Assembly (NCBI GenBank): GCA_020350285.1
Contig: CP070708.1
Span: forward strand, 3,301,970-3,365,969
Reading direction: 5' to 3'
Origin: Anaerolineaceae bacterium
Lineage (GTDB): Bacteria > Chloroflexota > Anaerolineae > Anaerolineales > E44-bin32
Length of the DNA: 64,000 nucleotides
The position numbers and the translations under genes are program-made. This document shows positions 6,051 through 51,423 of the stretch, one piece after another. The notes below the pieces were generated by a model. The model did no database searches. It was not told the DNA's origin and saw only the letters and a list, made by a program, of their open reading frames with translations. Numbering within the stretch: the first letter of the stretch is position 1; every line of letters begins with the position of its first letter.

Positions 6051-6128
6051 TTCAGCGATACGCACCGCCAAATCAACTAAAATCTCTTTGGATCCGATCC
6101 CTCTACAAGAGGCCACAAGACGAGAGGC

Positions 6129-8277: not shown

Positions 8278-8278
8278 C

Positions 8279-21233: not shown

Positions 21234-21313
21234 CTTATCCTCCTAATTAGAGTAGAATTGTCCAAATATTAGCACAATGTCTTAGAGATGTCAAGTATTA
21301 ATTTGACAAATAT

Positions 21314-21342
21314 TTGACAGTTTGCGGTTTCTGTGCTAGAAT
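21314..21342 (+). promoter_or_regulatory. Consensus-like promoter TTGACA, 17 nt spacer, TAGAAT, upstream of the B12-photoreceptor regulator gene
   Basis: ttgaca at 21314-21319 and tagaat at 21337-21342. The -35 element lies inside the second of two contiguous 11-nt direct repeats (21299-21320). Confidence 0.6.
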
Positions 21343-21427: not shown

Positions 21428-22741
21428 ATGGCTCAAGAGCCCCATGAGATCCCGATGCTGAACATTCGAGCTGTCTCTAGGGAGACCGGTCTCAAACCAG
21501 ACACGATTCGCGCCTGGGAACGTCGGTATGGGCTTCCAATGCCTAGTAGAACACAGGGAGGCCATCGACTTTACTCCCCGCGCGATATCGCCGTTCTCAA
21601 ATGGTTGAGCGATCGACGAGAAGAGGGATTGAGCATTAGCAGGGCCGTAGATATTTGGGAAAGGTTAAGCCGCGATGGGCAAGATCCGTTAGCCACACCG
21701 CAATTTGCTAAGCCACACCAATATACTTTTCCTGCTCAAGATGTCAGCATCAGCTCTTTACGTGATGATTGGGTCCAGGCATGCATGCGTTTTGATCAAC
21801 AAGCCGCAAATCAACTCTTGAACGAAGCATTTGCGCGTTATTCTGTTGAGTATGTGTGTTTAGAACTTTTGATCAAAGGTCTGGCAAACATTGGTCATGA
21901 TTGGTATCAAGGACAGATCACCGTCCAACAAGAGCACTTCGCTTCAGAGCTAACAATCCGACGCATAGAAAGTTTATTAATGGCATCCCCCCAACCCTCA
22001 ATTCCGGGGCAGATATTGGTTATCTGCCCACCCGATGAACAGCACACCATCAGCGCTCTGCTGATCACCTTGTTCCTGCGACGGCTAGGGTGGAATGCAA
22101 TCTTTTTAGGGGCGAATGTGCCTCTGGATCGGTTAGAACAGACCATCCAAAACACAAAGCCAATATTGGTCGTTCTCACTTCACAACAGCTTCTAACCGC
22201 AGCCACAGCACTACAGGTCGCTCAACTCCTGATCGAATACGACATCCCTATCGCATTCGGAGGTCGTGTCTACAATCTTGTTCCAGGAGTGCGAGATCGG
22301 ATCCCCGGTATATTCCTGGGTGAAACCCTAGATCAAGCCCTTTCGATGATCCTTCAATTGCTTGAATATGCACCCCCCACGCCTTCTGTTGAACCGCCCG
22401 AACAAGGATACCTCCTGGCATTAGAAGAATTTCACAACCGACAAGTTCAGGTGGAAGTACAGGTGGTGCAGGGAATGGCAGCTGTCGGGATCCACCCTGA
22501 TCACCTGGAAATCGCGAATACAAACCTCACCCAGAACATCATTGCAGCGTTGACACTCGGTGATATCTCCTTTCTCAGTAGCGATATCGAATGGGTGAAA
22601 GGTCTGCTTGAGCACCAGGGAATTCCAACCAGGGGCGTGAATAGTTATCTTCAAGCTTATGCGGAAGCCGTTATGCACGAATTGGGTGATCGTGGTTCCC
22701 TGATCGCGTCTTTTCTGGTTCAACTTGTTAGGGAAGGATGA
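21428..22741 (+). CDS. MerR-family, cobalamin-binding (CarH/LitR-type) light-responsive transcriptional regulator with a C-terminal extension
   Basis: MerR HTH (LNIRAVSRETGLKPDTIRAWERRYGLP). An exact W-x9-EH motif (WYQGQITVQQEH). B12 lower-ligand region ICPPDEQHTISALLITLFLRRLGWNAIFLGANVP. About 130 extra C-terminal aa. AAGGAGG RBS. Confidence 0.8.
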   Translation: MAQEPHEIPMLNIRAVSRETGLKPDTIRAWERRYGLPMPSRTQGGHRLYSPRDIAVLKWLSDRREEGLSISRAVDIWERLSRDGQDPLATPQFAKPHQYTFPAQDVSISSLRDDWVQACMRFDQQAANQLLNEAFARYSVEYVCLELLIKGLANIGHDWYQGQITVQQEHFASELTIRRIESLLMASPQPSIPGQILVICPPDEQHTISALLITLFLRRLGWNAIFLGANVPLDRLEQTIQNTKPILVVLTSQQLLTAATALQVAQLLIEYDIPIAFGGRVYNLVPGVRDRIPGIFLGETLDQALSMILQLLEYAPPTPSVEPPEQGYLLALEEFHNRQVQVEVQVVQGMAAVGIHPDHLEIANTNLTQNIIAALTLGDISFLSSDIEWVKGLLEHQGIPTRGVNSYLQAYAEAVMHELGDRGSLIASFLVQLVREG

Positions 22742-22830
22742 TAATGGAAGCCCCTATTTAAGGAAGTTATGGGAAGAGGGTTCCACAGAAAGACGAGGGA
22801 TTGAACATGGCAAACAAAGAAGAGAGGCTC

Positions 22831-23757
22831 ATGCGTTTCATCATCACTGGCGGCACTGGTCTCATCGGCCAGGCGCTAACCTCGGATCTCCTGAAGGAGG
22901 GTCATGAGGTAATCGTACTCAGTCGCAATCCTGCCATGGGAAAGGATGTTCTTCCACAAGGCACACGTTTTGTTGGATGGGACGCCAAGACCTCGGAAAG
23001 TTGGGTTGAGTGGGCTGAAGGCGCAGCTGCGATCATTAACCTCGCTGGTGAACGGCTCGCTGGTCCGAACCCCTTCAAGCTCCGCTGGACAGATAGGCGC
23101 AAGGATCTCATCTGCGAAAGTCGCTTACATGCCGGCCAAGCGGTATCCCAAGCCGTTGAAGCGGTGAAGGAGAAGCCCAAGGTCGTCGTTCAGGCTTCGG
23201 GTATCAATTACTACCCCATAGGCGACGATATTGCGACGGAAGAAACACCACCAGGCGAGGGTTTCCTCCCACATATTTGTTTAAATTGTTGGGAGATTTC
23301 CACACAACCAGTTGAAGACCTTGGGGTACGGCGGGTTGTCATGCGAACTGGTCCTGTGCTTCATCCCAAGAGCGGTCCCCTCCCACCCATGGTGCTCCAA
23401 TCAAAGCTTTTCCTCGGCGGGCCTCTAGGAGAGGGTCAACAATGGTTCTCCTGGATACACCCGACCGATGTCGTCGGCGGTATTCGATTTCTCATCGATC
23501 ATCCGCAGGCAACTGGAGCGTTTAATCTCTGTGCGCCCAATCCGCTAACCAATGCTACTTTCAGCCAAGTATTGGGTCGTGTTCTGCGGAGACCTTCGAT
23601 CCTTCCCCTTCCTTCCTTCGTGCTCAAGCTCATATTCGGCGAGATGGCCAGCACGATGTTGACCGGCGTCCGAGCCGTACCTACCCGACTACAAGCGATG
23701 GGCTATACCTTCCGCTTTCCGGAGGCGGGGGAGGCATTGAAGGATTTATTACTGTAA
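22831..23757 (+). CDS. TIGR01777/YfcH-like NAD-dependent epimerase family protein (SDR fold plus DUF1731)
   Basis: MRFIITGGTGLIGQAL Rossmann motif and a C-terminal GYTFRFPEAGEALKDLL end. The start was trimmed to the ATG at 22831, preceded by AGAGAGG. Confidence 0.75.
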   Translation: MRFIITGGTGLIGQALTSDLLKEGHEVIVLSRNPAMGKDVLPQGTRFVGWDAKTSESWVEWAEGAAAIINLAGERLAGPNPFKLRWTDRRKDLICESRLHAGQAVSQAVEAVKEKPKVVVQASGINYYPIGDDIATEETPPGEGFLPHICLNCWEISTQPVEDLGVRRVVMRTGPVLHPKSGPLPPMVLQSKLFLGGPLGEGQQWFSWIHPTDVVGGIRFLIDHPQATGAFNLCAPNPLTNATFSQVLGRVLRRPSILPLPSFVLKLIFGEMASTMLTGVRAVPTRLQAMGYTFRFPEAGEALKDLLL

Positions 23758-23841: not shown

Positions 23842-24837
23842 ATGTCCGAGTTTGTGAATGTTAATAGAACGAATGGCGAGATCCGCGTTGAACAACTTGT
23901 CAAGAAATATCCGGGCGATGTCGTCGCGGTTGATGACATTTCCTTCCATGTAGAGAGCGGACAGATCTTCGGCTTTCTTGGCCCGAACGGCGCGGGAAAG
24001 AGCACGACGATCAAAATCTTAACCACATTGGCTCTACCGACGGAGGGCATTGCATTTGTCGGCGGCTACGATGTGGTCTGTGAGGCAGCCGATGTGCGCC
24101 GCATCGCCGGCGTTGCCCTTCAAGACATCGGATTGGATCCGATGATGAAATCCATGGAACTGCTCACCCTTCAAGGTCAACTTTTTGGTAATTCAAGGTC
24201 CGGCGCAAGGAAGCGCGCCGAAGAACTGCTTGAATTGATGAGATTGACCGATGCCAAGGATCGTCGGGTCGGTACATACAGCGGTGGTATGCGACGACGA
24301 CTCGATCTGGCATTAGCCTTGGTCCATGAACCACAGATCCTATTCCTCGATGAACCGACGACAGGTCTCGATCCTGCTGGACGTCGCGATGTCTGGGAAG
24401 AGGTTCGACGATTAAATCGCCAGCTTGGCATGACCATCTTTCTGACAACCCAGTATTTAGAAGAAGCCGATGAATTGGCTGATGTGATCGCCATCATCGA
24501 TAGGGGCAAAGTCCAAACCGAGGGCTCTCCAGCAAGGCTTAAAGCTGCTGTTGGAAACGAGTCGATTAACCTGGCCTTTGAGAGCGGGGAGATCGCCGAA
24601 AGAGCTCGCGTGGACCTAAAAGATTTAGCAGACAGAATCCAATCCGATCGCGACGTGGTCCGACTGTATGTCAGCCAAGCTGCGGAGAGGATTCCATTGG
24701 TTGTCAACCGTTTACAGGAGTTAGAACTCAATCCCATCTCCATAACGCTCACCCAACCAACCTTGGACGATGTTTTCCTGCAGGTCACAGGGCAGCGTTT
24801 AATCGCTCAAGAAGCGATGCCTGTGCAGCCTGAATAG
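23842..24837 (+). CDS. ABC transporter ATP-binding protein (DrrA-like)
   Basis: GPNGAGKSTT, YSGGMRRRLDLA, LFLDEPTTGLD and LTTQYLEEA, plus a ~100-aa C-terminal extension typical of DrrA-type NBDs. Confidence 0.9.
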   Translation: MSEFVNVNRTNGEIRVEQLVKKYPGDVVAVDDISFHVESGQIFGFLGPNGAGKSTTIKILTTLALPTEGIAFVGGYDVVCEAADVRRIAGVALQDIGLDPMMKSMELLTLQGQLFGNSRSGARKRAEELLELMRLTDAKDRRVGTYSGGMRRRLDLALALVHEPQILFLDEPTTGLDPAGRRDVWEEVRRLNRQLGMTIFLTTQYLEEADELADVIAIIDRGKVQTEGSPARLKAAVGNESINLAFESGEIAERARVDLKDLADRIQSDRDVVRLYVSQAAERIPLVVNRLQELELNPISITLTQPTLDDVFLQVTGQRLIAQEAMPVQPE

Positions 24838-24851
24838 ACATCACAACATAA

Positions 24852-25694
24852 ATGATGAGGTTTCACAATATGACTACTCAAACATCTACACAAGAAATGG
24901 CCTGTAGAACCCCGCGGCAAAGGTGGTCACCACTGCAACTCCTCCTGGTGACTTGGCGCAACTTGGTGACGATCGTCCGCACCCCGGAAGCCTTGCTGCC
25001 TCCGATCGCGATCAGTGTTTTCTTCTTGATCATCTACGATTCCACCCTAGGTAAAGCCTCTGGCTTCATCCCCAATATTGGTAGCAACAGTTATCTTGGT
25101 TTCATCCTACCGCTCTCGATTGTCAGTTCGTCATTATCTGGTGCGGGGGTCGCTGCTCAGAACCTCGTTCGGGACATTGAGAGTGGGTACTTCGACAAAC
25201 TCCTACTAACACCGATAAGCCGGGCCACATTGCTGTTCGCTCCAATCCTGGCAGGCGCGTTCATACTCGGAATGCAAGCCTCGATCGTTGTAGGTATCGG
25301 ATTGCTTCTGGGATTGCAGCCCGCCACCGGATTCCCGGGGTTGTTGGTTGTCATCGGTCTGGCGATCTTGTTAGGCACAGGATTTGCCGGCTTCACGGTC
25401 TCGGCGGCACTGGGCAGCGGTAGTGCAGCTGCAACGCAGGGTGCCAGCTTCATTTTCTTCCCTTTAACCTTCTTGGCACCCACCTTCGTTCCAATAGATT
25501 TACTTGATGGATGGCTTAAGTCAGCAGCACAAATCAACCCCATTACCTACGTGTTGGAAGCGATGCGTGGACTCATCAACCAAGGTTGGGATGGAGTTGC
25601 CCTTTGGCAAGGTGTACTTGCCTGTCTGCTCCTAGCTGGCGCGATGTATGCGTTGGCCGTCTTTGCCTTGCGAGTACGCACAAGAAGGACGTGA
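24852..25694 (+). CDS. ABC-2 type transporter permease (DrrB-like)
   Basis: About 6 TM segments, immediately downstream of the NBD gene. The alternative ATG at 24870 has a better-spaced GAGG. Confidence 0.8.
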   Translation: MMRFHNMTTQTSTQEMACRTPRQRWSPLQLLLVTWRNLVTIVRTPEALLPPIAISVFFLIIYDSTLGKASGFIPNIGSNSYLGFILPLSIVSSSLSGAGVAAQNLVRDIESGYFDKLLLTPISRATLLFAPILAGAFILGMQASIVVGIGLLLGLQPATGFPGLLVVIGLAILLGTGFAGFTVSAALGSGSAAATQGASFIFFPLTFLAPTFVPIDLLDGWLKSAAQINPITYVLEAMRGLINQGWDGVALWQGVLACLLLAGAMYALAVFALRVRTRRT

Positions 25695-25851: not shown

Positions 25852-26841
25852 ATGACTAAACATACACCCCGTATTGGTTTTCCGGTCCAAATCTTAAGCC
25901 GCCCGGATCTAAAATCTCACGACACACGTCGCTGGTCAAGCGATCCACATCTGAGAATCAGTCTTCAATATTTGCGAGAAATCTTCGACTACCTCTCAGA
26001 AGCTGACATCAACATGTATCGCTTAGCAGCTGGTTTGGTTCCCTATGCCACCCATCCCGACCTACCACAATTCCATTCTCAAATTGAGGAGTGCACAAGT
26101 GAGCTTGCTGAGACCGGTAGGGTAGCCAGAGAAAGGGACATTCGCCTCTCATTTCATCCAGGCCAATTCATCGTTCTTAATGCCCCAGATGATGATCTGG
26201 CCAGTCGATCAGCAGCTGATATTGAGGTTCAAGCTAATGTCCTTGAATCGATGGGACTGGACGATAATGCCGTGGTCGTGGTTCATATCGGTGGCGTTTA
26301 CAACAATAAAGTTGAAGCCATAAAGCGCTTCGCAGCGCGATATTCCCAACTCAGTCAAACCGCGCAACGAAGATTGGTTGTAGAGAATGACGATCAACGA
26401 TTTGGCGTCGATGATGTTTTAGTGTTGCACGATTTAGTTGGCATCCGAGTTGTCTTCGATGCTCATCATCACCTCTGTTTCAATCCCAGCGGGTTAGATC
26501 CCCAGGATGCAGTGAATTTATGTCTAGAGACATGGCAGGGATGGGAAGCGCACCCGAAAATTCATTTCTCTTCACCTCGTACGGATTGGGGATTCCGTTA
26601 CGGAAGCGAAAATGGGCGCCAATCTCCCAATTGGCGATCTCACGCCGAGTTCATCGATCCTTTCCAATTCATACAGTTTTACCAATCCATCATCGAAGTG
26701 GCGCCAGATGTCATGTTGGAAGCGAAGGCGAAGGACATCGCAGTACGGCAATTAAAGCGAGACCTGCAGAGCTATGCTCCTGACCTGGCAGATTTATTTG
26801 TTATTAATGAGGAAATGGTATTAACGAAGGATAAAGCATGA
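25852..26841 (+). CDS. uvsE: UV damage endonuclease UvdE/UvsE
   Basis: Colinear motif match to B. subtilis UvsE recalled from memory: YR..A.LVPYATHPD, RLSFHPGQF, VVVHIGG, ENDD, FD.HHH, IHFSSP, RSHA.FID, MLEAKAKD. Confidence 0.85.
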   Translation: MTKHTPRIGFPVQILSRPDLKSHDTRRWSSDPHLRISLQYLREIFDYLSEADINMYRLAAGLVPYATHPDLPQFHSQIEECTSELAETGRVARERDIRLSFHPGQFIVLNAPDDDLASRSAADIEVQANVLESMGLDDNAVVVVHIGGVYNNKVEAIKRFAARYSQLSQTAQRRLVVENDDQRFGVDDVLVLHDLVGIRVVFDAHHHLCFNPSGLDPQDAVNLCLETWQGWEAHPKIHFSSPRTDWGFRYGSENGRQSPNWRSHAEFIDPFQFIQFYQSIIEVAPDVMLEAKAKDIAVRQLKRDLQSYAPDLADLFVINEEMVLTKDKA

Positions 26842-28271
26842 AAGCAGCAATCTGGTGGATACGGCGCGATCTGCGTCTCAGCGACAATAACGCTTTACGA
26901 ACGGCATTCGAGCAAGCCGAAAAGGTCATCCCGTTGTTTGTGCTCGACCCGAAATTGCTTCGTTCACCCTATGTCGGGCAAAAACGATTGGCCTTTCTTT
27001 TCACAGGTCTGCGGCAAATGGAAGGTGACCTCATTGAACACGGCAGCACATTGATCATCCGGAAAGGTGATCCATTAGATGTTCTCCAGGCGATTACTTC
27101 TGAGACTCAGGCAGGGGCGATCTTCGCTGAAGCTGATTTCTCTGCCTACGCCCGAAGCCGTGATGATCAAATTTCCCATGAACTTCCATTGAAACTCGTT
27201 GATGGCTTAACGTATTGGCCGCCTTCGATGATCACGAAGGCTGACGGGAAACCTTATTCTGTATTTACACCATTCAGTCGTGCGTGGCGCGCCTTACCCA
27301 CCCGGAATGCATCAGATCTCCATCATACCCCACAGGACATCCCCACCCCTCTAGGATTGGCTAGCGATCAGGTACCCAACAAACCAATCCTGACGCCTGA
27401 GGCGCCATTCCAACCTGGAGAAAGGGAAGCTCAACATCGGCTTGATGCTTTCACCAAAGATAAACAGGCTCCTGTTTATCGTTATGCTGATGAACGGAAC
27501 CTATTGGACATCTCGGGTTCCTCGCGGCTCTCGCCCTATCTTCGCTTTGGTATGCTTTCAGCCTGGCAAGCTATCGATGCTGCCCACAAAGCAATTAATA
27601 CCGCCCCTACGGATGATGCTCGTGAAAGTGCTCAAACATGGCTCAGTGAATTAATCTGGCGGGAATTTTATATCCATATCCTCCATCATTTCCCACATGT
27701 GAGAACGCAAAGCTTTCGGGCAAACCTACGCACCATTCCCTGGGTGAATAACGAGCGTGATTTCACAGCCTGGTGCGATGGGCAAACAGGTTTCCCTGTC
27801 GTTGATGCTGCCATGCGTCAACTGCGCCAAACCGGATGGATGCACAATCGTGGACGTATGATCGTAGCTTCGTTTTTGGTCAAGGATCTTCTCATCGATT
27901 GGCGCTGGGGAGAGCGTTGGTTCATGCAGCATTTGATTGATGGGGATCCGGCTTCCAATAATGGAGGTTGGCAATGGACAGCCGGTACCGGTACCGACGC
28001 CGCGCCTTATTTCAGGATCTTCAATCCGGTACTTCAAAGCAAGAAGTTCGACCCCCACGGTAGATTTATCCACAAATGGGTGCCCGAATTACAAAATGTA
28101 ACCGGAAAGTTTGTCCACGAGCCCTGGAAGATGTCGAGCGAGATGCAAGAGAAAACAGGATGCGTCCTTGGGGTGGATTATCCCGCACCGATCGTGGATC
28201 ACGCCACCGCTAGAAAACGGACCTTGGAGGCATATGCTTTTGCAAGAGAAAATTCAGGATCGAAAGAATAA
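26838..28271 (+). CDS. phr: Deoxyribodipyrimidine photolyase (class I CPD photolyase family)
   Basis: WWIRRDLRLSDNNAL, SRLSPYLRFG, TGFPVVDAAMRQL...GWMHNRGRMIVASFL, DGD.ASNNGGWQW, PYFRIFNP. The ATGA overlap with uvsE suggests translational coupling. Confidence 0.92.
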   Translation: MKAAIWWIRRDLRLSDNNALRTAFEQAEKVIPLFVLDPKLLRSPYVGQKRLAFLFTGLRQMEGDLIEHGSTLIIRKGDPLDVLQAITSETQAGAIFAEADFSAYARSRDDQISHELPLKLVDGLTYWPPSMITKADGKPYSVFTPFSRAWRALPTRNASDLHHTPQDIPTPLGLASDQVPNKPILTPEAPFQPGEREAQHRLDAFTKDKQAPVYRYADERNLLDISGSSRLSPYLRFGMLSAWQAIDAAHKAINTAPTDDARESAQTWLSELIWREFYIHILHHFPHVRTQSFRANLRTIPWVNNERDFTAWCDGQTGFPVVDAAMRQLRQTGWMHNRGRMIVASFLVKDLLIDWRWGERWFMQHLIDGDPASNNGGWQWTAGTGTDAAPYFRIFNPVLQSKKFDPHGRFIHKWVPELQNVTGKFVHEPWKMSSEMQEKTGCVLGVDYPAPIVDHATARKRTLEAYAFARENSGSKE

Positions 28272-28400: not shown

Positions 28401-29876
28401 ATGAGCGGTATTGAGACTGTTTTGGTTACGGGCGCAACAGGTTATGTGGGCGGAAGGTTGATCCCTCGATTATTGTCGGAGGGCTACCGTGTTCGTGCTT
28501 TAGCTCGTAATTTAACACGAATACAAGATCGAACCTGGTTCAAGGATGTTGAGGTGATCGAAGGAGATGTCCTCGATCCAAGCACCCTGGAAACTGCGTT
28601 TGATGGCGTACAAGCTGCGTATTACCTCATCCACAGCATGATGGCAGGGCGTGAATATCACCACCGGGATCTCATGGCCGCAAGACAATTTGGATCATTC
28701 GCTGAGAAAGCGAAAATCCAAAGAATCATCTACCTTGGCGGTCTCGGTGATCCCGATGCTGATCTTTCGCGCCATCTCCGTTCACGCCAACAAACGGGTG
28801 AAGCCTTGAGAGAAGCTGGGGGGCCTGTTTTCGAATTCCGCGCAGGCGTGATTGTCGGGGCAGGAAGTATCTCCTTCGAGATGATTCGATACCTGACTGA
28901 GCGGATTCCACTCATGATCTGCCCGCGCTGGGTCTTTACACGGACTCAACCCATTCACATCTCCAACGTCCTTGACTATCTCATTGCTTCGCTCCGGCAC
29001 CCCGGAGATGAAAATCTCATTGTCGAAATTGGTGGACCAGAAATCATGAGTTACGGCGATATGCTTCAAGGTTATGCGAACGTGCGCGGTCTCAAACGTT
29101 GGATACTTCCGGTCCCAGTGCTCACACCCAGGCTTTCCTCGTATTGGGTTCACTGGGTTACCCCGATTCCGGCCGCAGTTGCTCGCCCCCTGATTGAAGG
29201 TTTACGCGATGAAGTCTTGGTCCGATCCGAAACAGCTCGTAATCTCTTTCCCGAAATTAGCCTTATCGATTATCAGGCCGCGGTTCGTAAAGCTTTGGAG
29301 GCTCTACAGGCCAGCGAGGTGGATACCTCTGCAAGAGATGTCGATGCCGTTCATCAGGGTGATGTCGTCCCTGTTAAGTTGACCACCAAGGAAGGCATGA
29401 TCATTGAACGTCGTGCGCTTGAGGTTGAAGCTCCCCCACATGTTGTATTCAAAGCATTCACGGGTTTAGGTGGCGAGCGTGGCTGGCTTTATGCGAATTG
29501 GTTATGGCGCATCAGAGGGGCCATTGATCGCCTGTTTGGTGGTGTCGGTCTTCGCCGTCATCGTCGCGATCCCGACCATCTTCGCGTTGGCGATGTGCTC
29601 GACTTCTACCAAGTTGAACACTTAGAGCCTGTTCGCATGATGCGCCTGCGAGCTGAGATGAGGCTTCCAGGACGAGCATGGCTTCAATTTGAAACTCATC
29701 CATTGGCAGAGGATCGAAGCTTCTTGGTTCAAACTGCGATGTTCGCACCGAAAGGGCTTATCGGATTGATCTATTGGTACCTGCTTTACCCGATCCATGC
29801 ACAGGTTTTCTCCGGTTTAATATCCGGAGTAGCTAATGAAGCAGTCAAGATGAAGCATGAGGCAGTATCAGGCTAA
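28401..29876 (+). CDS. NAD(P)-binding SDR/NmrA-like protein with a C-terminal DUF2867-like domain
   Basis: VLVTGATGYVGGRLIPRLL Rossmann motif and a ~180-aa C-terminal domain. The architecture as I recall it is SDR plus DUF2867. Confidence 0.7.
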   Translation: MSGIETVLVTGATGYVGGRLIPRLLSEGYRVRALARNLTRIQDRTWFKDVEVIEGDVLDPSTLETAFDGVQAAYYLIHSMMAGREYHHRDLMAARQFGSFAEKAKIQRIIYLGGLGDPDADLSRHLRSRQQTGEALREAGGPVFEFRAGVIVGAGSISFEMIRYLTERIPLMICPRWVFTRTQPIHISNVLDYLIASLRHPGDENLIVEIGGPEIMSYGDMLQGYANVRGLKRWILPVPVLTPRLSSYWVHWVTPIPAAVARPLIEGLRDEVLVRSETARNLFPEISLIDYQAAVRKALEALQASEVDTSARDVDAVHQGDVVPVKLTTKEGMIIERRALEVEAPPHVVFKAFTGLGGERGWLYANWLWRIRGAIDRLFGGVGLRRHRRDPDHLRVGDVLDFYQVEHLEPVRMMRLRAEMRLPGRAWLQFETHPLAEDRSFLVQTAMFAPKGLIGLIYWYLLYPIHAQVFSGLISGVANEAVKMKHEAVSG

Positions 29877-29896: not shown

Positions 29897-30277
29897 ATGG
29901 AATCAACTAAAACAACATCAACAACCTTGAATACTACGATCTATCGTGGGGTTACCGCACTTGCACTCATCGGTTTCCTGATCATGTTTTTCTCCATATC
30001 CACCGCATTTATCGTCGGTGACTTCTCTGCAGAGGGTAGCGTTATTCTCTCCCTCGCTTGGGGAAAAGTCTCCTTGATCGATGTATATATTGGTTTCCTC
30101 ATCTTTTCCGGCTGGATCATCTACCGAGAACGCTCTATTGGGCGATCATTGATTTGGGTGATTTTTATGATGATTTTCGGAAACATGACGGCCTGTTTGT
30201 ATATTCTGTTTGCGTTACGGCAAAGTCGTGGAGATTGGTCGCGATTTTGGCTGGGGCAGCGGACAGAGGCAAGCTGA
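29897..30277 (+). CDS. Small 4-TM membrane protein, DUF1475-like
   Basis: 126 aa containing W.KVSLIDVYIGFLIFSGWIIYRE...WVIFMMIFGNMTACLYILFAL. AAAGGAAG RBS. The family assignment is from memory. Confidence 0.5.
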   Translation: MESTKTTSTTLNTTIYRGVTALALIGFLIMFFSISTAFIVGDFSAEGSVILSLAWGKVSLIDVYIGFLIFSGWIIYRERSIGRSLIWVIFMMIFGNMTACLYILFALRQSRGDWSRFWLGQRTEAS

Positions 30278-30333: not shown

Positions 30334-31185
30334 ATGACAATTAAGATTGTGACAGACAGCACCAGCGATCTCTCACAGACCATTGCAGATCAACATGACA
30401 TCACCATTGTTCCCCTTTACATCAATTTCGGTGATCAAAGTTATCTCGATGGCGTGGAACTTACGCGTGAAGAATTCTATAAGATGCTTCCAGATCACCC
30501 AACGCCACCATCAACATCAGTTCCAAGTGTTGAAATGTTTCAGAACATCTATCAGAAATTGAGTGCCGAGGGAGCGGATCAAATCCTTTCGATTCATATT
30601 GCGGGCAGCCTCAGCGCGACAGCTGACATCGCCCAGTCCACCTTGGAAACACTAACCGATGTGCCTGTAACGGTATTTGATGCCGGCCAGATCAGCTTAG
30701 GAACCGGTTTATTAGCCATTGCGGCCGCACAAGCCGCAGTTTCGGGGATGACGATGGAAGAAATCGTGTCCATGTTAAAAGATAAGGCGTTACGGACATA
30801 CTCATTCGCCGCGTTGGATACGCTTGAATACCTACGCCGGAGCGGTCGCGCCAGCAGATTTCGGTCCACGGTTGGGTCGTTGTTGAGCATTAAACCTCTG
30901 CTAAGCATGCATAATGGAAAGATGGATGTCGACAGAGTGCGCACAGAAAAAGGGGCAATCGAATGGTTGATGGATCACCTCGCCAACCTCCATCCATTTG
31001 AGGAGATCGCACTAATTCACACCAATGCGCCTGATAAAGTCGAAGCTTTTCGGCAACGTGCCCATCCATTCCTTCCAAGTGGCAAAGAACCGATCATCGC
31101 GGAGGTGACACCGATCATTGGTACGCACGTGGGCCCTGGCGCAGTGGGTTTCTCTTGCATATCAAAAGGAATTTCAAATCTATAA
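30334..31185 (+). CDS. DegV-family fatty-acid-binding protein
   Basis: IKIVTDSTSDL N-terminus, S.PS...F and LSATADIAQ. The start was trimmed to the ATG at 30334 because the 5' part of the track ORF overlaps the previous gene in another frame. Confidence 0.85.
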   Translation: MTIKIVTDSTSDLSQTIADQHDITIVPLYINFGDQSYLDGVELTREEFYKMLPDHPTPPSTSVPSVEMFQNIYQKLSAEGADQILSIHIAGSLSATADIAQSTLETLTDVPVTVFDAGQISLGTGLLAIAAAQAAVSGMTMEEIVSMLKDKALRTYSFAALDTLEYLRRSGRASRFRSTVGSLLSIKPLLSMHNGKMDVDRVRTEKGAIEWLMDHLANLHPFEEIALIHTNAPDKVEAFRQRAHPFLPSGKEPIIAEVTPIIGTHVGPGAVGFSCISKGISNL

Positions 31186-31214: not shown

Positions 31215-31994
31215 ATGAACAATGACAAACTTAGGCAGGCGATCGTCGTTGTGATGGTTATCGCCACCATCGTGGTCAACGGTCTAGCCACCGCGCTGCC
31301 CCTCAATGGGCAGACGACAGGAGAGATTTCGGACCGTTTTGAAGTATTTTTCGTTCCAGCTGGTTACGTTTTTACCATCTGGGGTCTTATTTACCTGGGT
31401 CTTGGCGCGTATGCGATTTTCCAGGCAATCCCCGCGCAATCAGACAATCAGCGTCTGCGTCGCATTGGGGTTCCATTTACCATCGCTTCTCTAGCCAACA
31501 TGGCCTGGATCTTCCTCTGGCATTACGAACAATTCCCTTTGACTTTGGTCGCGATGCTTACACTTTTGATTTCGTTGATCGTTATCTATCTGCGATTGGA
31601 TATCGGTCGTGCGGAGGTTTCCACAGCTGAGAGATGGTCTGTGCATGTTCCATTCAGCATTTACCTCGGATGGATCACCGTGGCGACCATCGCCAACGTG
31701 ACCTCACTACTGGATTACATAAATTGGAGTGGATGGGGAATAAACCCTGAAGTGTGGGCAGTGATTATGTTGATCGCTGGACTAGCGATTGCACTAGCAA
31801 TGAGCCTGACGCGAGGGGATGTCGCTTACTTGCTGGTCCTCATATGGGCATTTGTAGGAATCGCCATGAAACACCAAGGAGCCGCGCTCGTTGCACCCGC
31901 GGCTTGGATCACCTCGGGATTGGTCTTGGTCGTGCTTGTGGTAGGCGTTTTCCTGAAATCTCGATCTCTGGCGACGCCTGAATCCACCGGATGA
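31215..31994 (+). CDS. TspO/MBR-like tryptophan-rich membrane protein (long form)
   Basis: 259 aa, Trp-rich, about 7 TM segments. FFVPAGYVFTIWGLIYLGLGAYAI resembles the TspO TM1-TM2 motif. AAAGGAG RBS at the ATG at 31215. Confidence 0.4.
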   Translation: MNNDKLRQAIVVVMVIATIVVNGLATALPLNGQTTGEISDRFEVFFVPAGYVFTIWGLIYLGLGAYAIFQAIPAQSDNQRLRRIGVPFTIASLANMAWIFLWHYEQFPLTLVAMLTLLISLIVIYLRLDIGRAEVSTAERWSVHVPFSIYLGWITVATIANVTSLLDYINWSGWGINPEVWAVIMLIAGLAIALAMSLTRGDVAYLLVLIWAFVGIAMKHQGAALVAPAAWITSGLVLVVLVVGVFLKSRSLATPESTG

Positions 31995-32146: not shown

Positions 32147-32491
32147 ATGATGATAGTGACGGTATTGAAGATCATTGCTGCGATAGCTACGATCGCCACA
32201 GGTTTGGTGTCTTTGATCCGACCCACCGCAATTACTGGCTTCACAGGATTGAGTGTGACAGGACCGCGCGGGGTCACCGAGATTCGATCCATACTTGGCG
32301 CTTTGTTTGTGGCCCTAGGCGCTACACCGCTTCTGCTGAACGTTCCTGCTACCTATCAGATGTTGGGAATAGCCTACCTCGTTATAGGCTTTGTACGGCT
32401 TGTGTCCATGATCGTCGATAAATCAGTTGAGCCATCGAATGTTATCAGCTTGATCGTTGAGATCGTTTTCGGCGTCATATTAGTTATCTAA
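32147..32491 (+). CDS. Small membrane protein, DUF4345-like
   Basis: 114 aa with 4 hydrophobic segments. AAGGAGAGAG precedes the ATG at 32147. Confidence 0.45.
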   Translation: MMIVTVLKIIAAIATIATGLVSLIRPTAITGFTGLSVTGPRGVTEIRSILGALFVALGATPLLLNVPATYQMLGIAYLVIGFVRLVSMIVDKSVEPSNVISLIVEIVFGVILVI

Positions 32492-32592: not shown

Positions 32593-33267
32593 ATGGAGAA
32601 ATTACAAGAGTTGTTAGAGGAATTTCGAAGCGTTGTCGCAGGTAGACAGAAGATCATAGATTCGATTCTCCCTCCTCTCACGTTTGTCATCGTGAACGAA
32701 CTTGCTGATGTAAATTACGCCTTGTGGTCGTCACTCGGTATGGCTTTGGTGTTCACGATGTTCCGTCTATTCAAGGGAGAATCTGTTGGGTACGCCGTGG
32801 GAGGTTTAGGAGGTGTTATCGCAGCAATCGCTATTGTGAAGCTGCTGGGCAGAACAGAGGGCTTTTTTGTGCCGGCACTCGTCTCGGGGTCGCTGACATT
32901 TGTCCTTTGTCTCGTAAGCATCATCATCAAACGACCGCTTGTGGCTTTTACCAGTCACATCACACGCAGATGGCCGTTAGGCTGGTATTGGCACCCGAAG
33001 GTCGTCGCGGCTTATCAAGAGGTCACCTTCTTCTGGACCATATTCTTTGCTTTACGTGTATTGGTTCAAATTGCCATCCTCCAAGGTGGAACTAGCAACT
33101 TCTTCGCCATCATAAATATCATCTTGGGTTGGCCAGCACTTATCGTACTCCTTGCCGGAAGTTATCTTTATGGATCATGGAGACTTCGACGACTCCAAGG
33201 TCCGAGTATTGAAGAGTACGATCGTGGGGATCCTCCACCATGGACGGGCCAATTACGTGGCTTTTAG
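32593..33267 (+). CDS. Integral membrane protein, possibly DUF3159-like
   Basis: 224 aa with about 5 TM segments and an N-terminal IIDSILPPLTFVIVN segment. The family call is tentative. Confidence 0.5.
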   Translation: MEKLQELLEEFRSVVAGRQKIIDSILPPLTFVIVNELADVNYALWSSLGMALVFTMFRLFKGESVGYAVGGLGGVIAAIAIVKLLGRTEGFFVPALVSGSLTFVLCLVSIIIKRPLVAFTSHITRRWPLGWYWHPKVVAAYQEVTFFWTIFFALRVLVQIAILQGGTSNFFAIINIILGWPALIVLLAGSYLYGSWRLRRLQGPSIEEYDRGDPPPWTGQLRGF

Positions 33268-33329: not shown

Positions 33330-33791
33330 ATGAATCATCTAAATCCTGAGAAGCTACACACCCGTTTTCTAAACGGAACAACAGACGCTGGACCACGCAT
33401 TCCGCGCTGCTATACGTTGACCCACTCGGATACCACGGGTGAACTCTTCTTAACGATTGGTCCTACCTATGATCAGGAGCAGATCTCAGGCTGGTACACA
33501 CGATTCATGCGCGACGAGGTGTTGGCGGCTTGGGAAATGGATGAAGAAGGTATGTCCCTCCATGTCCATGCTCATGTCAGCGGTGGATTGATCCTCGGTT
33601 CCGCTAAATGGCGAGAAAAGATCTTTCGCCGACACATGCCTTTGGTCTTAGAAGCTTTTCGGTATGGGGATCGCGCATTGGTGGTGAAATATCCAGAGTT
33701 GGATCAAGCACCGCTTGTGATCCATTTCCACGCCCCCACCCCAAAGGATGATCTGATTGAAACTTGGGGCACGCTTGGTGATTACAGATAG
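33330..33791 (+). CDS. STAY-GREEN (SGR) family protein, putative Mg-dechelatase homolog
   Basis: Motif series PRCYTLTHSD, GWYTRFMRDEVLAAW, MSLHVHAHVSGG, MPLVLEAFRYGD, YPELDQAPLVIHFH. It is colinear with the plant SGR core as I recall it: YTLTHSD, GWY..LQRDEVVAEW, LHVHCHISGG, LPVVL.AF.HGD, PEL..A.V.VYFHS. Confidence 0.8.
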   Translation: MNHLNPEKLHTRFLNGTTDAGPRIPRCYTLTHSDTTGELFLTIGPTYDQEQISGWYTRFMRDEVLAAWEMDEEGMSLHVHAHVSGGLILGSAKWREKIFRRHMPLVLEAFRYGDRALVVKYPELDQAPLVIHFHAPTPKDDLIETWGTLGDYR

Positions 33792-33878: not shown

Positions 33879-33915
33879 AAAACCGCCGAACGAGTCATTC
33901 GTTCGGCGGTTGAAA
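33879..33915. terminator. Bidirectional terminator hairpin between the SGR gene and the convergent small gene
   Basis: aaaaccgccgaacga-gtca-ttcgttcggcggtt, with an A-run 5' and T/A residues 3'. Confidence 0.6.
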
Positions 33916-33933
33916 TTCATTATGACAGGCATG

Positions 33934-34101
33934 TTACTTATCGGGAAGGGGCTCCCATGGTGAGATCCGACGGATTTTTTCAATCAGACGTCTGCGGGTC
34001 TTTACATCTTGTGTCTCTTCAAGCCTGGCTTTGAGTGCACGCAGTTTTCGCACTCGTCGTTGGCGCCGTCGAATATTACGTTGCTTTTCCGTCATCGGCA
34101 T
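33934..34101 (-). CDS. Small, highly basic Arg/Lys-rich protein (55 aa)
   Basis: MPMTEKQRNIRRRQRRVRKLRALKARLEETQDVKTRRRLIEKIRRISPWEPLPDK. GAGAGGTG RBS 7 nt upstream of the ATG at 34101; the track ORF start at 34197 was rejected. Confidence 0.5.
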   Translation of the reverse strand: MPMTEKQRNIRRRQRRVRKLRALKARLEETQDVKTRRRLIEKIRRISPWEPLPDK

Positions 34102-34834: not shown

Positions 34835-35206
34835 TTATTTAGAACATAACTCTGAGATGTAGCGGATGAGCTCCTCGGTGTCAAGATCTTTGAGTAAATA
34901 GGATGTCGCCCCCGCTCGGATTGCGGCTTCTTCCTCCCACTCGGTGGGGTAAGAGGTCAGAACAACTAAACAAGGCGGATCGGATAGTTCCGAAATTTGG
35001 CGCATTATCTCTAACCCCATTCCATCACTCCGCTTAACCTCAAGCAGAACGACATCCGGTTCCTGCGCTTGGATATCCTCTAGTACCTGGTTAGCATCCC
35101 CTGAGTGACCGAGGACGGTGAAACCGGTAGCGCGACTCAACCGATCTGCAAGCGCAGATCTTACAGAATCGTGTTCGTCGACGATATATAACCGTGCTGG
35201 GCACAT
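34835..35206 (-). CDS. Single-domain response-regulator receiver with Glu in place of the phospho-acceptor Asp
   Basis: 123 aa. IVDEHD, then PDVVLLEVKRSDGMG where NarL-type receivers have LLD, then LVVLTS and YLLKD. No output domain. Confidence 0.8.
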   Translation of the reverse strand: MCPARLYIVDEHDSVRSALADRLSRATGFTVLGHSGDANQVLEDIQAQEPDVVLLEVKRSDGMGLEIMRQISELSDPPCLVVLTSYPTEWEEEAAIRAGATSYLLKDLDTEELIRYISELCSK

Positions 35207-35323
35207 ATAAGCTACCCGATGCTAAAAGTTAAGTTCAGTATAAGACCCCTTCAAAACATGCTCCAGTGAACAATATCCCAAAGTGATTTGAAACCTGTCA
35301 CGCTTGAAATTCGGGGTGTCAGA

Positions 35324-38573: not shown

Positions 38574-38691
38574 AATGGCTTGGACCTTGCACCCGCGCAA
38601 GATAAAATCGAGTCCCATGAATGGCAAGGAGACAATCAACCTGATTATGCTCATATAGTCGAGGTTGAAACAATCGGCGAGGTATGAATAA

Positions 38692-40955: not shown

Positions 40956-41035
40956 GAGGTATCTGATAGCTCTTGAGAGTCACAAACGCCTAAACTCTAG
41001 CTTGACTTACACGAACTTTATTCATGAGGCGAGGT

Positions 41036-51057: not shown

Positions 51058-51423
51058 CGTTCCTCCCATGAAAGGTGAATCATGATCCTAAACACCAAAC
51101 CCACGCAAAATTAACCTGGTGGAATACCATCTTACCTTACCAGGCATAGATTTTCGCTATTACCCATGTTCTACTCGTGAATCACAGCAAGAGACGTGCC
51201 AATCTGAGCGGGAATACTACATACGTGTTTGTGGCTTTCAAACTAAGCATTCTCTCTCTTGTAGCCCATACGCTTCAAATGCTTCTTTGATGTTCCCCAT
51301 CATCCAGACCTCATAGGTATTTTCGAGAATGCAAGGTGTATGTAAGGTTACACCATCCTATGTCTCTTTATACTGTTATTGTCGCGTTGAAGCTTGTAAA
51401 GAAATTTACTTAAGGCAGACACA

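What the first reader, a model, noticed from the sequence alone, without database searches (positions are those of the whole stretch)
33330..33791. STAY-GREEN (Mg-dechelatase) homolog in a genome segment that shows no photosynthesis genes
Seen: the 153-aa product carries the colinear motifs YTLTHSD, GWY..F.RDEV.A.W, LHVHAHVSGG, LVLEAFRYGD and YPELD.APLVIHFH. These match the plant SGR core as I recall it. Established (from memory, to be verified): plant SGR is the Mg-dechelatase that starts chlorophyll a breakdown. Homologs in non-photosynthetic bacteria, including Anaerolineae, have been reported to be catalytically active and proposed as the evolutionary source of the plant enzyme. Inference: its physiological substrate and role in such bacteria remain unclear. 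Its position at the end of a photoreceptor-led cluster next to a TspO-like gene gives a testable context, namely light-linked handling of exogenous Mg-tetrapyrroles.
Basis: partly seen in the sequence, partly recalled or inferred. Interest (0 to 1): 0.7.

Follow-up and report, generated by a model that had tools for sequence, protein, structure and literature searches.

The report
Mg-dechelatase gene in light-response cluster
This gene encodes a close relative (81% identical) of a bacterial enzyme already shown to strip magnesium from chlorophyll, so the enzyme is ordinary; but it ends a gene cluster headed by a vitamin-B12 light sensor, and the same enzyme sits beside light-sensing and UV-repair genes in many other lineages, which gives a testable clue to its unknown role in non-photosynthetic microbes.

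Summary
Window 33330-33791(+) encodes a 153-aa Staygreen-family protein (Pfam PF12638, 158.5 bits, full length). It is 81% identical, without gaps, to AbSGR-h of Anaerolineae bacterium SM23_63 (PDB 7Y5Y), a characterised Mg-dechelatase. All 13 residues tested by mutagenesis are identical, including H32, D34 and D62. The exact protein is already in NCBI as UCF61036.1, "staygreen family protein", so the gene is a new member of a known kind.

About 58 ORFs in the window were scanned and none is a photosynthesis gene.

The useful result is the context. SGR is the last of 13 co-directional genes headed by a CarH/LitR-type B12 photoreceptor-repressor (Wx9EH present). An operator-like 11-bp repeat overlaps that gene's -35 box. 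The run includes UvdE, photolyase, an ABC-2 exporter and a divergent TspO/MBR relative.

In 79 more distant loci (72 lineages), 33 lineages keep a light or UV marker within 10 kb of SGR, in at least eight gene orders. Markers are CarH, photolyase, UvdE, heliorhodopsin, RudS, DUF1295 and the TspO-like gene. They are 2.8-fold denser within 2 kb than at 4-10 kb (p=2e-4).

I infer a light-induced role in handling phototoxic Mg-tetrapyrroles. That role is not demonstrated.

The parts
21299..21320 (+). Operator-like element: two tandem 11-bp repeats, TAATTTGACAA and ATATTTGACAG, matching the CarH half-site consensus nAnnTnnACAn at 9 of 10 positions. It overlaps the -35 box. A 2-mismatch copy faces the divergent gene at 21278-21294(-).
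   Evidence: Exact TTGACA-N5-TTGACA occurs only here in the 64 kb. Consensus taken from PMC8156234.
21314..21342 (+). Best sigma-70-like promoter match in the region: TTGACA-17-TAGAAT with a TG extension, 11 of 12. It lies 86 bp upstream of the CarH-like start codon.
   Evidence: The extended -10 is conserved in L005.
21428..22741 (+). CarH/LitR-type regulator, 437 aa: MerR HTH, B12-binding_2, B12-binding, then a C-terminal extension of about 150 aa. It carries Wx9EH at 159-170 and the motif E204-Q-H206-T-I-S.
   Evidence: (Thermus CarH 5C8D/3WHP, E about 6e-31)
22801..23757 (+). SDR epimerase-like protein with DUF1731
23842..24837 (+). ABC transporter ATPase (DrrA-like C-terminus)
24852..25694 (+). 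ABC-2 type permease (PF01061)
25852..26841 (+). UV-damage endonuclease UvdE/UvsE
26838..28271 (+). Deoxyribodipyrimidine photolyase. Its start overlaps the end of UvdE by 4 nt.
28401..29876 (+). NmrA/SDR domain fused to DUF2867
29897..30277 (+). DUF1475 membrane protein
30334..31185 (+). DegV-family (fatty-acid-binding) protein
31215..31994 (+). Divergent TspO/MBR-related membrane protein, 259 aa, modelled as a bundle of about seven helices (UCF61033.1)
   Evidence: (5 of 6 homologs hit PF03073, best E=3.3e-7). The fold is not confirmed.
32150..32491 (+). DUF4345 membrane protein. The start is set at M24 of the mechanical ORF to match the 113-aa orthologs.
32593..33267 (+). DUF3159 membrane protein
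33330..33791 (+). Staygreen-family Mg-dechelatase homolog, 153 aa (UCF61036.1), an ortholog of AbSGR-h. H32, D34 and D62 are conserved.
33881..33911 (.). Hairpin with a 13-bp stem between the convergent SGR gene and the small minus-strand ORF. It ends the plus-strand gene run. The T-tract is better on the minus strand.
   Evidence: 3' region z = -4.1

Best explanation
The ORF encodes a soluble Staygreen-family Mg-dechelatase that is orthologous to AbSGR-h.

Established for the 81%-identical ortholog: it replaces the central Mg2+ of chlorophyll a, chlorophyllide a, protochlorophyllide a and chlorophylls b and c with two protons. D34 is proposed to coordinate and destabilise the Mg, and H32 and D62 are proposed to act as a proton relay.

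Inferred here from gene order and comparative context: in this Anaerolineaceae bacterium the gene is expressed as the last member of a light-response cluster. The cluster is repressed in the dark by a CarH/LitR-type AdoB12 photoreceptor bound over the -35 box of the promoter at the head of the cluster, and it is de-repressed by UV, blue or green light.

The enzyme's physiological job would be to demetallate Mg-tetrapyrrole photosensitisers that the non-phototrophic cell picks up from its surroundings, such as chlorophylls and their precursors from neighbouring phototrophs or detritus. This would be the first step in getting rid of them. The partners would be the co-clustered membrane proteins: the ABC-2 exporter and the TspO-like protein here, and an MFS transporter plus alpha/beta-hydrolases in other lineages. 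The same cluster also repairs UV damage to DNA through UvdE and photolyase.
For: Enzyme identity:
- Pfam Staygreen at 158.5 bits, full length.
- Ungapped 153-residue match to PDB 7Y5Y, E=2e-88, and 81% identity to the SM23_63 protein.
- All 13 residues mutated in AbSGR-h are identical, including D34 and D62 (the N mutants are soluble but inactive) and H32 (the A mutant is weakly active).
- Substrate range and proposed mechanism come from PMC11006732.
- dN/dS is 0.13-0.22.

Cluster:
- 13 co-directional genes with gaps of 157 bp or less, closed by a hairpin after SGR.
- The first gene matches Thermus CarH at E about 6e-31, with Wx9EH and the axial His aligned.
- The best promoter match of the region lies just upstream of it, and the window's only exact TTGACA-N5-TTGACA overlaps its -35 box. 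That element fits the CarH half-site at 9 of 10 positions (consensus from PMC8156234).
- The cluster is syntenic in SM23_63 and four relatives.

Linkage beyond inherited synteny (79 loci, 72 lineages, SGR 52-64% identical):
- CarH homologs lie within 10 kb in 15 loci. Fourteen of those carry Wx9EH, and the exception is cut by a contig end. Two sit directly upstream of SGR, at 43 and 146 bp.
- Photolyase occurs in 10 loci, heliorhodopsin in 13 (9 of them within 160 bp and on the same strand), RudS in 7, DUF1295 in 11 and the TspO-like gene in 7 (4 within 190 bp, including one on a closed Bathyarchaeota chromosome).
- 33 of 72 lineages have at least one marker within 10 kb, 23 within 2 kb and 14 within 500 bp.
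- Marker density is 2.8 times higher at 0-2 kb than at 4-10 kb, p=1.8e-4.
- There are at least eight different gene orders.
- Triple 11-bp repeats scoring 12-15 of 15 lie upstream of CarH homologs in nine loci.

The literature independently ties heliorhodopsin, RudS and LitR neighbourhoods to photoprotection and UV repair, and TSPO to porphyrin binding and degradation.
Against: - Nothing here shows transcription. Co-transcription of SGR with the head of the cluster is assumed, internal promoters are possible in gaps of 129-157 bp, and none of the internal gaps has a CarH-type repeat.
- The window's operator has only two good repeats; the best triple scores 10 of 15.
- The canonical B12 motif is degenerate, with G to S, S to T and V/T to Q substitutions.
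- 39 of 72 lineages show no light marker within the DNA fetched, though many of those contigs are short.
- The lineages are related, so the counts are not fully independent.
- From established plant biology, pheophytin and pheophorbide are still photosensitisers, so Mg removal alone does not detoxify. No ring-opening oxygenase or known downstream catabolic enzyme was seen in the window. The export and TspO steps are conjecture.
- The TspO-like fold was not confirmed.
- The title of Obata et al. 2019 calls the bacterial activity 'promiscuous', which implies a different native substrate. That paper could not be read.
Confidence: 0.55

Rival explanations
1. The enzyme belongs to a light-stress response, but Mg-dechelation of chlorophylls is only a side activity. 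On this view the native substrate is some other compound relevant under illumination, such as another metal chelate or an endogenous tetrapyrrole intermediate.
For: The title of Obata et al. 2019 calls the bacterial activity promiscuous (cited). AbSGR-h has low substrate specificity. Activity varies widely among bacterial homologs (Introduction of PMC8531759). The light-gene linkage fits this reading as well as it fits the best explanation.
Against: AbSGR-h is reported to be more active on chlorophyll a than the Arabidopsis SGRs are. The catalytic residues are strictly conserved across the 15-sequence alignment. No alternative substrate has been proposed. A TspO/MBR relative (TSPO is a porphyrin-binding family) recurs as the direct neighbour of SGR across domains of life.
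Confidence: 0.2
2. SGR serves the nutritional catabolism or scavenging of chlorophyll from algal detritus (phytol, Mg or N recovery). On this view its place next to light-response genes is a genomic accident with no regulatory meaning.
For: The organisms are heterotrophic Anaerolineae from sediments and mats (record titles). Alpha/beta-hydrolases and transporters flank SGR in several lineages and could form a catabolic module. There is no CarH operator next to SGR itself in the window.
Against: The linkage to photoreceptors recurs in many rearranged forms. It involves two unrelated light sensors, CarH and heliorhodopsin, placed immediately next to SGR on the same strand. Marker density peaks at SGR. 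No tetrapyrrole ring-cleavage or phytol-catabolism genes were found in the window.
Confidence: 0.12
3. The host is a cryptic phototroph, and SGR turns over its own (bacterio)chlorophyll as in plants.
For: Some members of Chloroflexota are phototrophs (general knowledge). Only 64 kb of a 3.4-Mb contig was examined.
Against: No photosynthesis gene was found among about 58 ORFs in the window. The literature treats SM23_63 and the other bacterial and archaeal SGR hosts as non-photosynthetic. Homologs also occur in Bathyarchaeota, Dehalococcoidia and Alicyclobacillus records.
Confidence: 0.05
4. The ORF is a decayed or non-functional remnant, or a chance ORF.
For: None found.
Against: Full-length profile match, all functional residues intact, dN/dS of 0.13-0.22, and a conserved position in five related genomes.
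Confidence: 0.01

Closest known systems
AbSGR-h, the Mg-dechelatase homolog of Anaerolineae bacterium SM23_63 (PDB 7Y5Y; Obata 2019, Dey 2021/2022, Sato 2024)
   Same: Both are 153 aa and align without gaps at 81% identity. All 13 residues probed by mutagenesis are identical, including H32, D34 and D62. The gene cluster around them is the same, from photolyase through SGR to the downstream response regulator, GAF kinase and mevalonate genes.
   Different: It comes from a different species (an Anaerolineaceae MAG, UCF61036.1). There are 29 substitutions, none at a tested functional site. The window also has a UvdE gene in front of the photolyase that the tblastn comparison did not find in the SM23_63 locus. 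Activity of this particular protein has not been measured.
Plant STAY-GREEN (SGR/SGRL), the Mg-dechelatase that commits chlorophyll a to breakdown
   Same: Same Pfam domain and the same reaction. The literature places AbSGR-h nearest to the green-plant clade and proposes horizontal transfer from bacteria.
   Different: The bacterial protein is the bare domain. It has no room for a chloroplast transit peptide or a C-terminal extension, because residues 4-152 of 153 are the domain. It has a broader substrate range that includes Chl b, Chl c and protochlorophyllide. Its host lacks photosystems, and no PPH or PAO pathway genes were seen nearby.
CarH/LitR light-inducible regulons (Thermus, Myxococcus and Bacillus megaterium CarH; Pseudomonas class II LitR phrB-litR-rudS operons)
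   Same: A MerR-plus-B12 regulator with Wx9EH heads a co-directional set of photoprotection genes that includes photolyase. 11-bp repeats overlap the promoter.
   Different: There are no carotenoid genes in the cluster. The regulator has a C-terminal extension of about 150 aa and ExHxxS instead of ExHxxG. The cargo includes a Mg-dechelatase, which none of the CarH/LitR papers I could search mention.
Heliorhodopsin operons (heliorhodopsin with photolyase, ABC transporter, glutamine synthetase and others)
   Same: In nine related loci a heliorhodopsin gene lies within 160 bp of SGR on the same strand. Around it are the families reported to flank heliorhodopsin: photolyase, MerR regulators, ABC transporters, SDRs and alpha/beta-hydrolases.
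   Different: This window has no heliorhodopsin. Staygreen is not among the ten published neighbour groups and is not mentioned in the main text of either neighbourhood paper.
TSPO/MBR tryptophan-rich sensory proteins
   Same: The sequence profile matches nearly the whole TspO_MBR model, and sources name the relatives 'tryptophan-rich sensory protein'. TSPO binds and degrades porphyrins (papers listed).
   Different: It is 259 aa and modelled with about seven helices, not about 150-160 aa with five. The window protein scores below Pfam's cutoff. A profile search of PDB sequences and a Foldseek search both failed to recover TSPO.

Membership tests
Staygreen family (Pfam PF12638), bacterial SGR-homolog clade of AbSGR-h | Full-length match to the Staygreen profile above the curated cutoff | tested here: met
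   158.5 bits against a cutoff of 27; residues 4-152 match profile positions 2-147 of 147
Staygreen family (Pfam PF12638), bacterial SGR-homolog clade of AbSGR-h | Close sequence relationship to the crystallised, enzymatically characterised member | tested here: met
   7Y5Y_A at E=2e-88, residues 1-153 aligned to 1-153 without gaps; 81% identity to the SM23_63 protein
Staygreen family (Pfam PF12638), bacterial SGR-homolog clade of AbSGR-h | Proposed catalytic residues H32, D34 and D62, plus the structural residues R26, Y28, T29 and D114 | tested here: met
   All are identical at the same numbering. Their roles come from PMC8531759 and PMC11006732. They are invariant or nearly invariant in the 15-sequence alignment.
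Staygreen family (Pfam PF12638), bacterial SGR-homolog clade of AbSGR-h | Mg-dechelatase activity on chlorophyll a or chlorophyllide | not testable with these tools
   Shown only for the 81%-identical ortholog
Plant-type SGR/SGRL | N-terminal plastid-targeting extension and a C-terminal region beyond the Staygreen domain (recalled from memory, not from a tool) | tested here: not met
   The protein is 153 aa and the domain spans residues 4-152, so no extension is possible. It is a bacterial homolog, not a plant-type SGR.
CarH/LitR AdoB12 photoreceptor-repressors (window 21428-22741) | N-terminal MerR-type HTH plus a C-terminal B12-binding module | tested here: met
   MerR_1 at 12-76, B12-binding_2 at 112-181, B12-binding at 195-286; Thermus CarH 5C8D/3WHP at E about 6e-31
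CarH/LitR AdoB12 photoreceptor-repressors (window 21428-22741) | Wx9EH motif capping the adenosyl group | tested here: met
   WYQGQITVQQEH at 159-170, aligned to the CarH motif. The definition comes from PMC8156234. The motif is present in 14 of 15 CarH homologs found beside SGR in the distant loci.
CarH/LitR AdoB12 photoreceptor-repressors (window 21428-22741) | Canonical B12 motif ExHx2Gx41SxV/Tx22-27GG | tested here: inconclusive
   E204-x-H206 and GG278-279 are present with the right spacing, but G is replaced by S209, S by T251 and V/T by Q253. ExHxxS recurs in the Chloroflexota homologs.
CarH/LitR AdoB12 photoreceptor-repressors (window 21428-22741) | Operator of three or four tandem 11-bp nAnnTnnACAn repeats overlapping the promoter | tested here: inconclusive
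   Two repeats score 9 of 10 over the -35 box, but the best triple scores only 10 of 15. Triples of 12-15 of 15 occur upstream of homologs in nine other loci.
CarH/LitR AdoB12 photoreceptor-repressors (window 21428-22741) | AdoCbl-dependent DNA binding in the dark that is released by light | not testable with these tools
   Needs EMSA or reporter assays
TspO/MBR family (window 31215-31994) | Match to the PF03073 profile above the curated cutoff | tested here: inconclusive
   The window protein scores 23.2-23.3 bits against a cutoff of 24, covering profile positions 11-142 of 145. Five of six homologs match, best E=3.3e-7. Most database relatives carry a precomputed PF03073 hit.
TspO/MBR family (window 31215-31994) | TSPO five-helix fold | tested here: not met
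   The AF2 model (pLDDT 81, pTM 0.81) has about seven long helices. Foldseek against PDB gave no hit at E of 0.001 or better and no TSPO among the top 50. A profile search of PDB sequences found nothing at E of 1 or better. Foldseek is weak on all-helical membrane proteins, so this lowers the claim of membership but does not exclude it.

The most novel reading that the evidence does not exclude
Bacterial and archaeal SGR homologs may be the core of a widespread, so far undescribed light-triggered pathway that rids non-phototrophic cells of exogenous chlorophyll-type photosensitisers. The pathway would run from SGR (Mg removal) through a neighbouring alpha/beta-hydrolase (possibly removal of the phytol tail) to MFS or ABC-2 export or capture by the TspO-like protein. 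Light control would be supplied in different lineages by two unrelated sensors: CarH/LitR at the level of transcription, and heliorhodopsin, possibly by direct protein-protein regulation as published for photolyase and for an ABC transporter. This would be the ancestral function from which green plants recruited SGR for chlorophyll breakdown.
Probability: 0.3. Interest if true: 0.75.

Novelty: new member of a known kind. Interest (0 to 1): 0.5.

Why it matters
The enzyme itself adds little. It is a species-level ortholog of a crystallised, assayed protein and is already annotated correctly.

[quoted passage not shown] The context found here turns it into concrete experiments. SGR is repeatedly wired to two different light sensors and to UV and photo-oxidative repair genes. 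This predicts light- and B12-dependent expression, protection from chlorophyll-mediated phototoxicity, and possibly heliorhodopsin-gated enzyme activity.

If this is correct, chlorophyll 'degradation' began as a defence of non-phototrophs against other organisms' pigments. It would also add a new kind of cargo to CarH/LitR and heliorhodopsin regulons.

Tried and rejected
1. The window's MFS gene (18377-19615, minus strand), in the operon divergent from the CarH promoter, looked like the MFS that flanks SGR in 16 other loci. It is only about 24% identical, a generic MFS resemblance. Rejected.

2. I looked for extra CarH-type operators in each internal intergenic gap of the cluster, including the 62-bp gap before SGR. 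None scored better than shuffled sequence.

3. TspO-like protein. A profile search of PDB sequences found nothing. The AF2 model with Foldseek against PDB gave no significant match. The fold is unconfirmed.

4. The alpha/beta-hydrolase next to SGR in other lineages was tested as a possible chlorophyllase or pheophytinase. Pfam gives only generic Abhydrolase_5. The nearest solved structure is AroC (9EH6), from a PETase-mining study with no stated native substrate. This is suggestive only.

5. An Rfam scan for a cobalamin or other riboswitch in the cluster found only one tRNA-Glu at 8205-8278.

6. Obata 2019 and Dey 2022 are not held in the library. I therefore cannot exclude that they discuss gene context.

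7. The look-up of encoding contigs could not retrieve the source contig for the window's own proteins. The rest of the genome was not screened for photosynthesis genes.

8. Footprinting the promoter with the one close relative that includes it (L005) gave 84% identity overall, too similar to single out the operator.
Full report
**1. The observation.** The reverse strand is closed by stop codons. The Pfam Staygreen profile PF12638 matches residues 4-152 to profile positions 2-147 of 147, with E=1.3e-46 and 158.5 bits against a cutoff of 27. NCBIfam has no model for this family. Against orthologs in three related genomes, dN/dS is 0.13-0.22, and the gene's GC and GC3 match its neighbours. It is a real, native gene under selection.

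**2. What the protein is.** A search of PDB sequences returns a single hit, 7Y5Y chain A ('Staygreen domain-containing protein'), with E=2e-88 and residues 1-153 aligned to 1-153 without a gap. This is AbSGR-h of Anaerolineae bacterium SM23_63, which appears in the large protein search as P0005 at 81% identity.

Published work on AbSGR-h shows high Mg-dechelating activity on chlorophyll a. D34N and D62N mutants are soluble but inactive, and H32A is weakly active. R26, Y28, T29 and D114 are needed for solubility (PMC8531759). The enzyme also has a broad substrate range (Chl a, chlorophyllide a, protochlorophyllide a, Chl b and c). In the proposed mechanism D34 coordinates the Mg, and H32 and D62 assist (PMC11006732). 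All 13 mutated positions are identical in the window protein at the same numbering. The catalytic residues are invariant in a 15-sequence alignment that goes down to 60% identity.

The exact sequence is already public as UCF61036.1, 'MAG: staygreen family protein [Anaerolineaceae bacterium]', on a 3,405,363-bp contig. As an enzyme it is therefore a new species-level member of a known, characterised kind.

**3. No photosynthesis genes in the segment.** I scanned about 58 ORFs of the window against Pfam. They encode housekeeping and miscellaneous functions: DnaB, GyrA, GatB, L19, transporters, two-component systems, mevalonate-pathway enzymes, penicillin amidase and others. None is a reaction-centre, antenna, chlorosome or (bacterio)chlorophyll-synthesis family. 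Five ORFs had no hit.

**4. The cluster.** SGR is the last of 13 genes on the + strand, with intergenic gaps from -4 to 157 bp. In order they are:
- a regulator with MerR HTH, B12-binding_2 and B12-binding domains (21428-22741)
- an SDR with DUF1731
- an ABC ATPase and an ABC-2 permease
- UvdE
- photolyase
- an SDR fused to DUF2867
- DUF1475
- DegV
- a TspO/MBR-like membrane protein
- DUF4345
- DUF3159
- SGR

. A hairpin with a 13-bp stem at 33881-33911 separates SGR from a convergent small ORF.

The regulator matches Thermus thermophilus CarH (5C8D, 3WHP) at E about 6e-31. The Wx9EH motif (WYQGQITVQQEH, 159-170) and the cobalt-ligating His (E204-Q-H206) are aligned. According to the review PMC8156234, Wx9EH together with the B12 motif defines CarH photoreceptors, and their operators are tandem 11-bp nAnnTnnACAn repeats overlapping the promoter.

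Here the classical B12 motif is partly degenerate (G to S, S to T, V/T to Q, with GG retained), and the protein has an extra C-terminal region of about 150 aa.

The best sigma-70-like promoter match in 16 kb (11 of 12, with a TG extension) lies 86 bp upstream of this gene. Its -35 box is part of the only exact TTGACA-N5-TTGACA in the whole window. That element reads as two CarH half-sites at 9 of 10 positions, and a weaker copy faces the divergent gene.

No such repeats occur in the internal gaps of the cluster, and no riboswitch is present. The picture is a single light-controlled promoter at the head of a long operon-like run. Co-transcription through to SGR is inferred, not shown.

**5. Is the linkage more than inherited synteny?** The same order, from photolyase to SGR and on to the downstream response regulator, GAF kinase and mevalonate genes, is found in SM23_63 itself and in four relatives. 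These genomes are close (SGR 72-86% identical), so that alone proves little.

I therefore fetched 80 loci from species-representative genomes with SGR homologs of 52-81% identity and analysed the 79 that are not close relatives. They fall into 72 groups at 80% SGR identity.

Searching them with the window's cluster proteins gave these counts within 10 kb of SGR:

| Family | Loci |
|---|---|
| CarH homologs | 15 |
| SDR-DUF2867 | 14 |
| SDR-DUF1731 | 12 |
| DegV | 11 |
| Photolyase | 10 |
| DUF1475 | 10 |
| TspO-like | 7 |
| DUF4345 | 6 |
| UvdE | 3 |

These occur in at least eight different orders and orientations. CarH lies directly upstream of SGR in L040 (43 bp) and L039 (146 bp). L058 reads CarH-MFS-SGR-hydrolase-hydrolase-ABC. 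Fourteen of the 15 CarH homologs carry Wx9EH, and the exception is cut by a contig end. Nine loci have triple 11-bp repeats scoring 12-15 of 15 upstream of the CarH gene, including a perfect 15 of 15 in L028.

The TspO-like gene is the immediate neighbour of SGR in L013, L071, L070 (Dehalococcoidia) and L059. L059 is a closed Bathyarchaeota chromosome, so the pairing crosses the bacteria-archaea boundary.

**6. An unbiased look at neighbours.** I clustered all ORFs within 4 kb of SGR without reference to the window and annotated cluster representatives. This added families the window lacks:
- an MFS transporter: 16 loci, always on the same strand, median gap 81 bp
- heliorhodopsin: 7 loci in this clustering and 13 by tblastn; 9 of those are within 160 bp on the same strand, representing 7 lineages
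- RudS, the TudS-DUF1722 tRNA 4-thiouridine desulfidase: 7 loci by tblastn
- DUF1295: 11 loci by tblastn
- an AhpC/TSA peroxiredoxin
- a flavin amine-oxidase-like protein
- two alpha/beta-hydrolases directly downstream of SGR

Heliorhodopsin is a light sensor. Published neighbourhood analyses tie it to photolyase, UvdE, MerR regulators, ABC transporters, SDRs, alpha/beta-hydrolases, GAF and PAS kinases and redox enzymes (PMC8612252 and PMC11109279). RudS is reported to sit in light-responsive operons with photolyase and LitR, and it reduces UVA-induced growth delay (PMC11417400).

Taking CarH, UvdE, photolyase, heliorhodopsin, RudS, the TspO-like gene and DUF1295 as markers:
- 33 of 72 lineages have at least one within 10 kb, 23 within 2 kb and 14 within 500 bp.
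- Marker density is 10.9 per 100 kb at 0-2 kb from SGR and 3.9 per 100 kb at 4-10 kb. The ratio is 2.8, binomial p=1.8e-4.
- As a rough inference, a single-copy gene in a genome of a few megabases has about a 0.5% chance of falling in a given 20-kb stretch, so even the distal density is well above background.

Two caveats apply. The lineages are related, so the counts are not fully independent. Also, 39 lineages show no marker, though many of those are on short contigs.

**7. Interpretation.** The enzymatic identity is about as secure as sequence can make it. The physiological reading is inference. Two unrelated photoreceptor systems, UV-repair genes and oxidative-stress genes are repeatedly placed beside SGR on the same strand, and in this genome SGR ends a CarH-headed run. 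The simplest explanation is that SGR is made, or activated, when the cell is lit.

The only known substrates of the enzyme are Mg-tetrapyrroles, which are potent photosensitisers. A non-phototroph can only get them from outside. I therefore propose light-induced demetallation of acquired chlorophyll-type pigments as a first step in their removal, with the neighbouring exporters, hydrolases and TspO-like protein as candidate partners.

Several points weaken this:
- Pheophytin and pheophorbide remain phototoxic, which is established plant biology, so later steps are needed, and those steps are conjecture.
- The TspO-like assignment rests on borderline profile matches. Neither a PDB profile search nor a Foldseek search with a confident model confirmed it.
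- The alpha/beta-hydrolase resembles only a generic esterase, AroC (PDB 9EH6).
- The original authors called the activity 'promiscuous'.

**8. [quoted passage not shown] Full-text searches combining Staygreen, SGR or Mg-dechelatase with CarH, LitR, photolyase or heliorhodopsin, and searches for the family's database names, returned only plant papers or papers without the link. Neither heliorhodopsin neighbourhood paper mentions Staygreen in its main text. Obata 2019 and Dey 2022 could not be read, so I cannot rule out prior mention.

**Verdict.**
- The gene is a new member of a known kind.
- Its value lies in a recurrent light-sensor context that makes the open question of bacterial SGR function directly testable.

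Noticed in passing
window 21428-22741: The CarH-like regulator is 437 aa rather than about 300. It has a C-terminal extension of about 150 aa and ExHxxS in place of ExHxxG. Chloroflexota homologs beside SGR share the length (445-455 aa) and the Ser. PDB 'cobalamin-binding protein' and GGDEF entries (8J2X, 8J2Y) align into the extension.
   Followed up: partly
window 33934-34101 (-): A small Arg-rich ORF of about 55 aa with a weak DUF6800 match lies convergent to SGR. It is 87-91% conserved in all close relatives and has its own terminator hairpin.
   Followed up: no
window 34835-37090 (-): A stand-alone receiver domain and a GAF-GAF-HisKA_3 histidine kinase are conserved next to SGR in the relatives and also in the more distant locus L021. 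GAF and PAS kinases are a reported feature of heliorhodopsin neighbourhoods.
   Followed up: no
window 37239-41443: Mevalonate-pathway genes (HMG-CoA reductase, an HMG-CoA-synthase-like protein, a thiolase and an OB-fold/zinc-ribbon ChsH2-like protein) follow immediately. This is an archaeal-style thiolase/HMGS/OB-fold set in a bacterium.
   Followed up: no
window 48370-51069 (-): An 899-aa protein made of six or more PAS domains with no recognisable output domain. A lone response regulator lies at 51424-51816.
   Followed up: no
window 4659-8169: DnaB helicase is followed by a 468-aa protein with two AAA+ modules (IstB/DnaC-like and DnaA-like), and then by tRNA-Glu at 8205-8278.
   Followed up: no
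L004, L015, L043, L059, L072, L082, L083 and others: Many SGR loci are labelled as archaeal MAGs (Hod-, Thor-, Bathy- and Hadarchaeota), including two closed Bathyarchaeota chromosomes. The 'Hodarchaeota' contig L004 is 81-94% identical at the protein level to this Anaerolineaceae window across 12 kb, so it is probably mis-binned. The closed chromosomes suggest genuine cross-domain transfer.
   Followed up: partly
L073 and L075 (JBFFEL010000001.1, 12.5-33 kb and 86.5-107 kb): One 119-kb contig carries two inverted copies of the whole CarH-SDR-photolyase-SGR-DUF2867 cluster, with identical tblastn profiles. This is either a large inverted duplication or an assembly artefact.
   Followed up: no
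L016, L058, L076, L040, L031: A recurrent MFS - SGR - alpha/beta-hydrolase (PF12695) arrangement, sometimes with a second alpha/beta-hydrolase (PF00561). The PF12695 protein matches PDB 9EH6 (AroC, from a PETase-mining study) at E=4e-80. Its native substrate is unknown, and it could be a dephytylating esterase.
   Followed up: partly
L038 7143-7874: A fusion of a pyrimidine-dimer DNA glycosylase (Pyr_excise) with DUF1722 sits in an SGR/heliorhodopsin neighbourhood. This is another UV-repair gene in the same context.
   Followed up: no
window 19860-21233 (-) and L052: A protein with three fasciclin domains is transcribed divergently from the CarH promoter region, and an operator-like repeat faces it. 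A 46%-identical fasciclin protein also lies 8 kb from SGR in L052.
   Followed up: no
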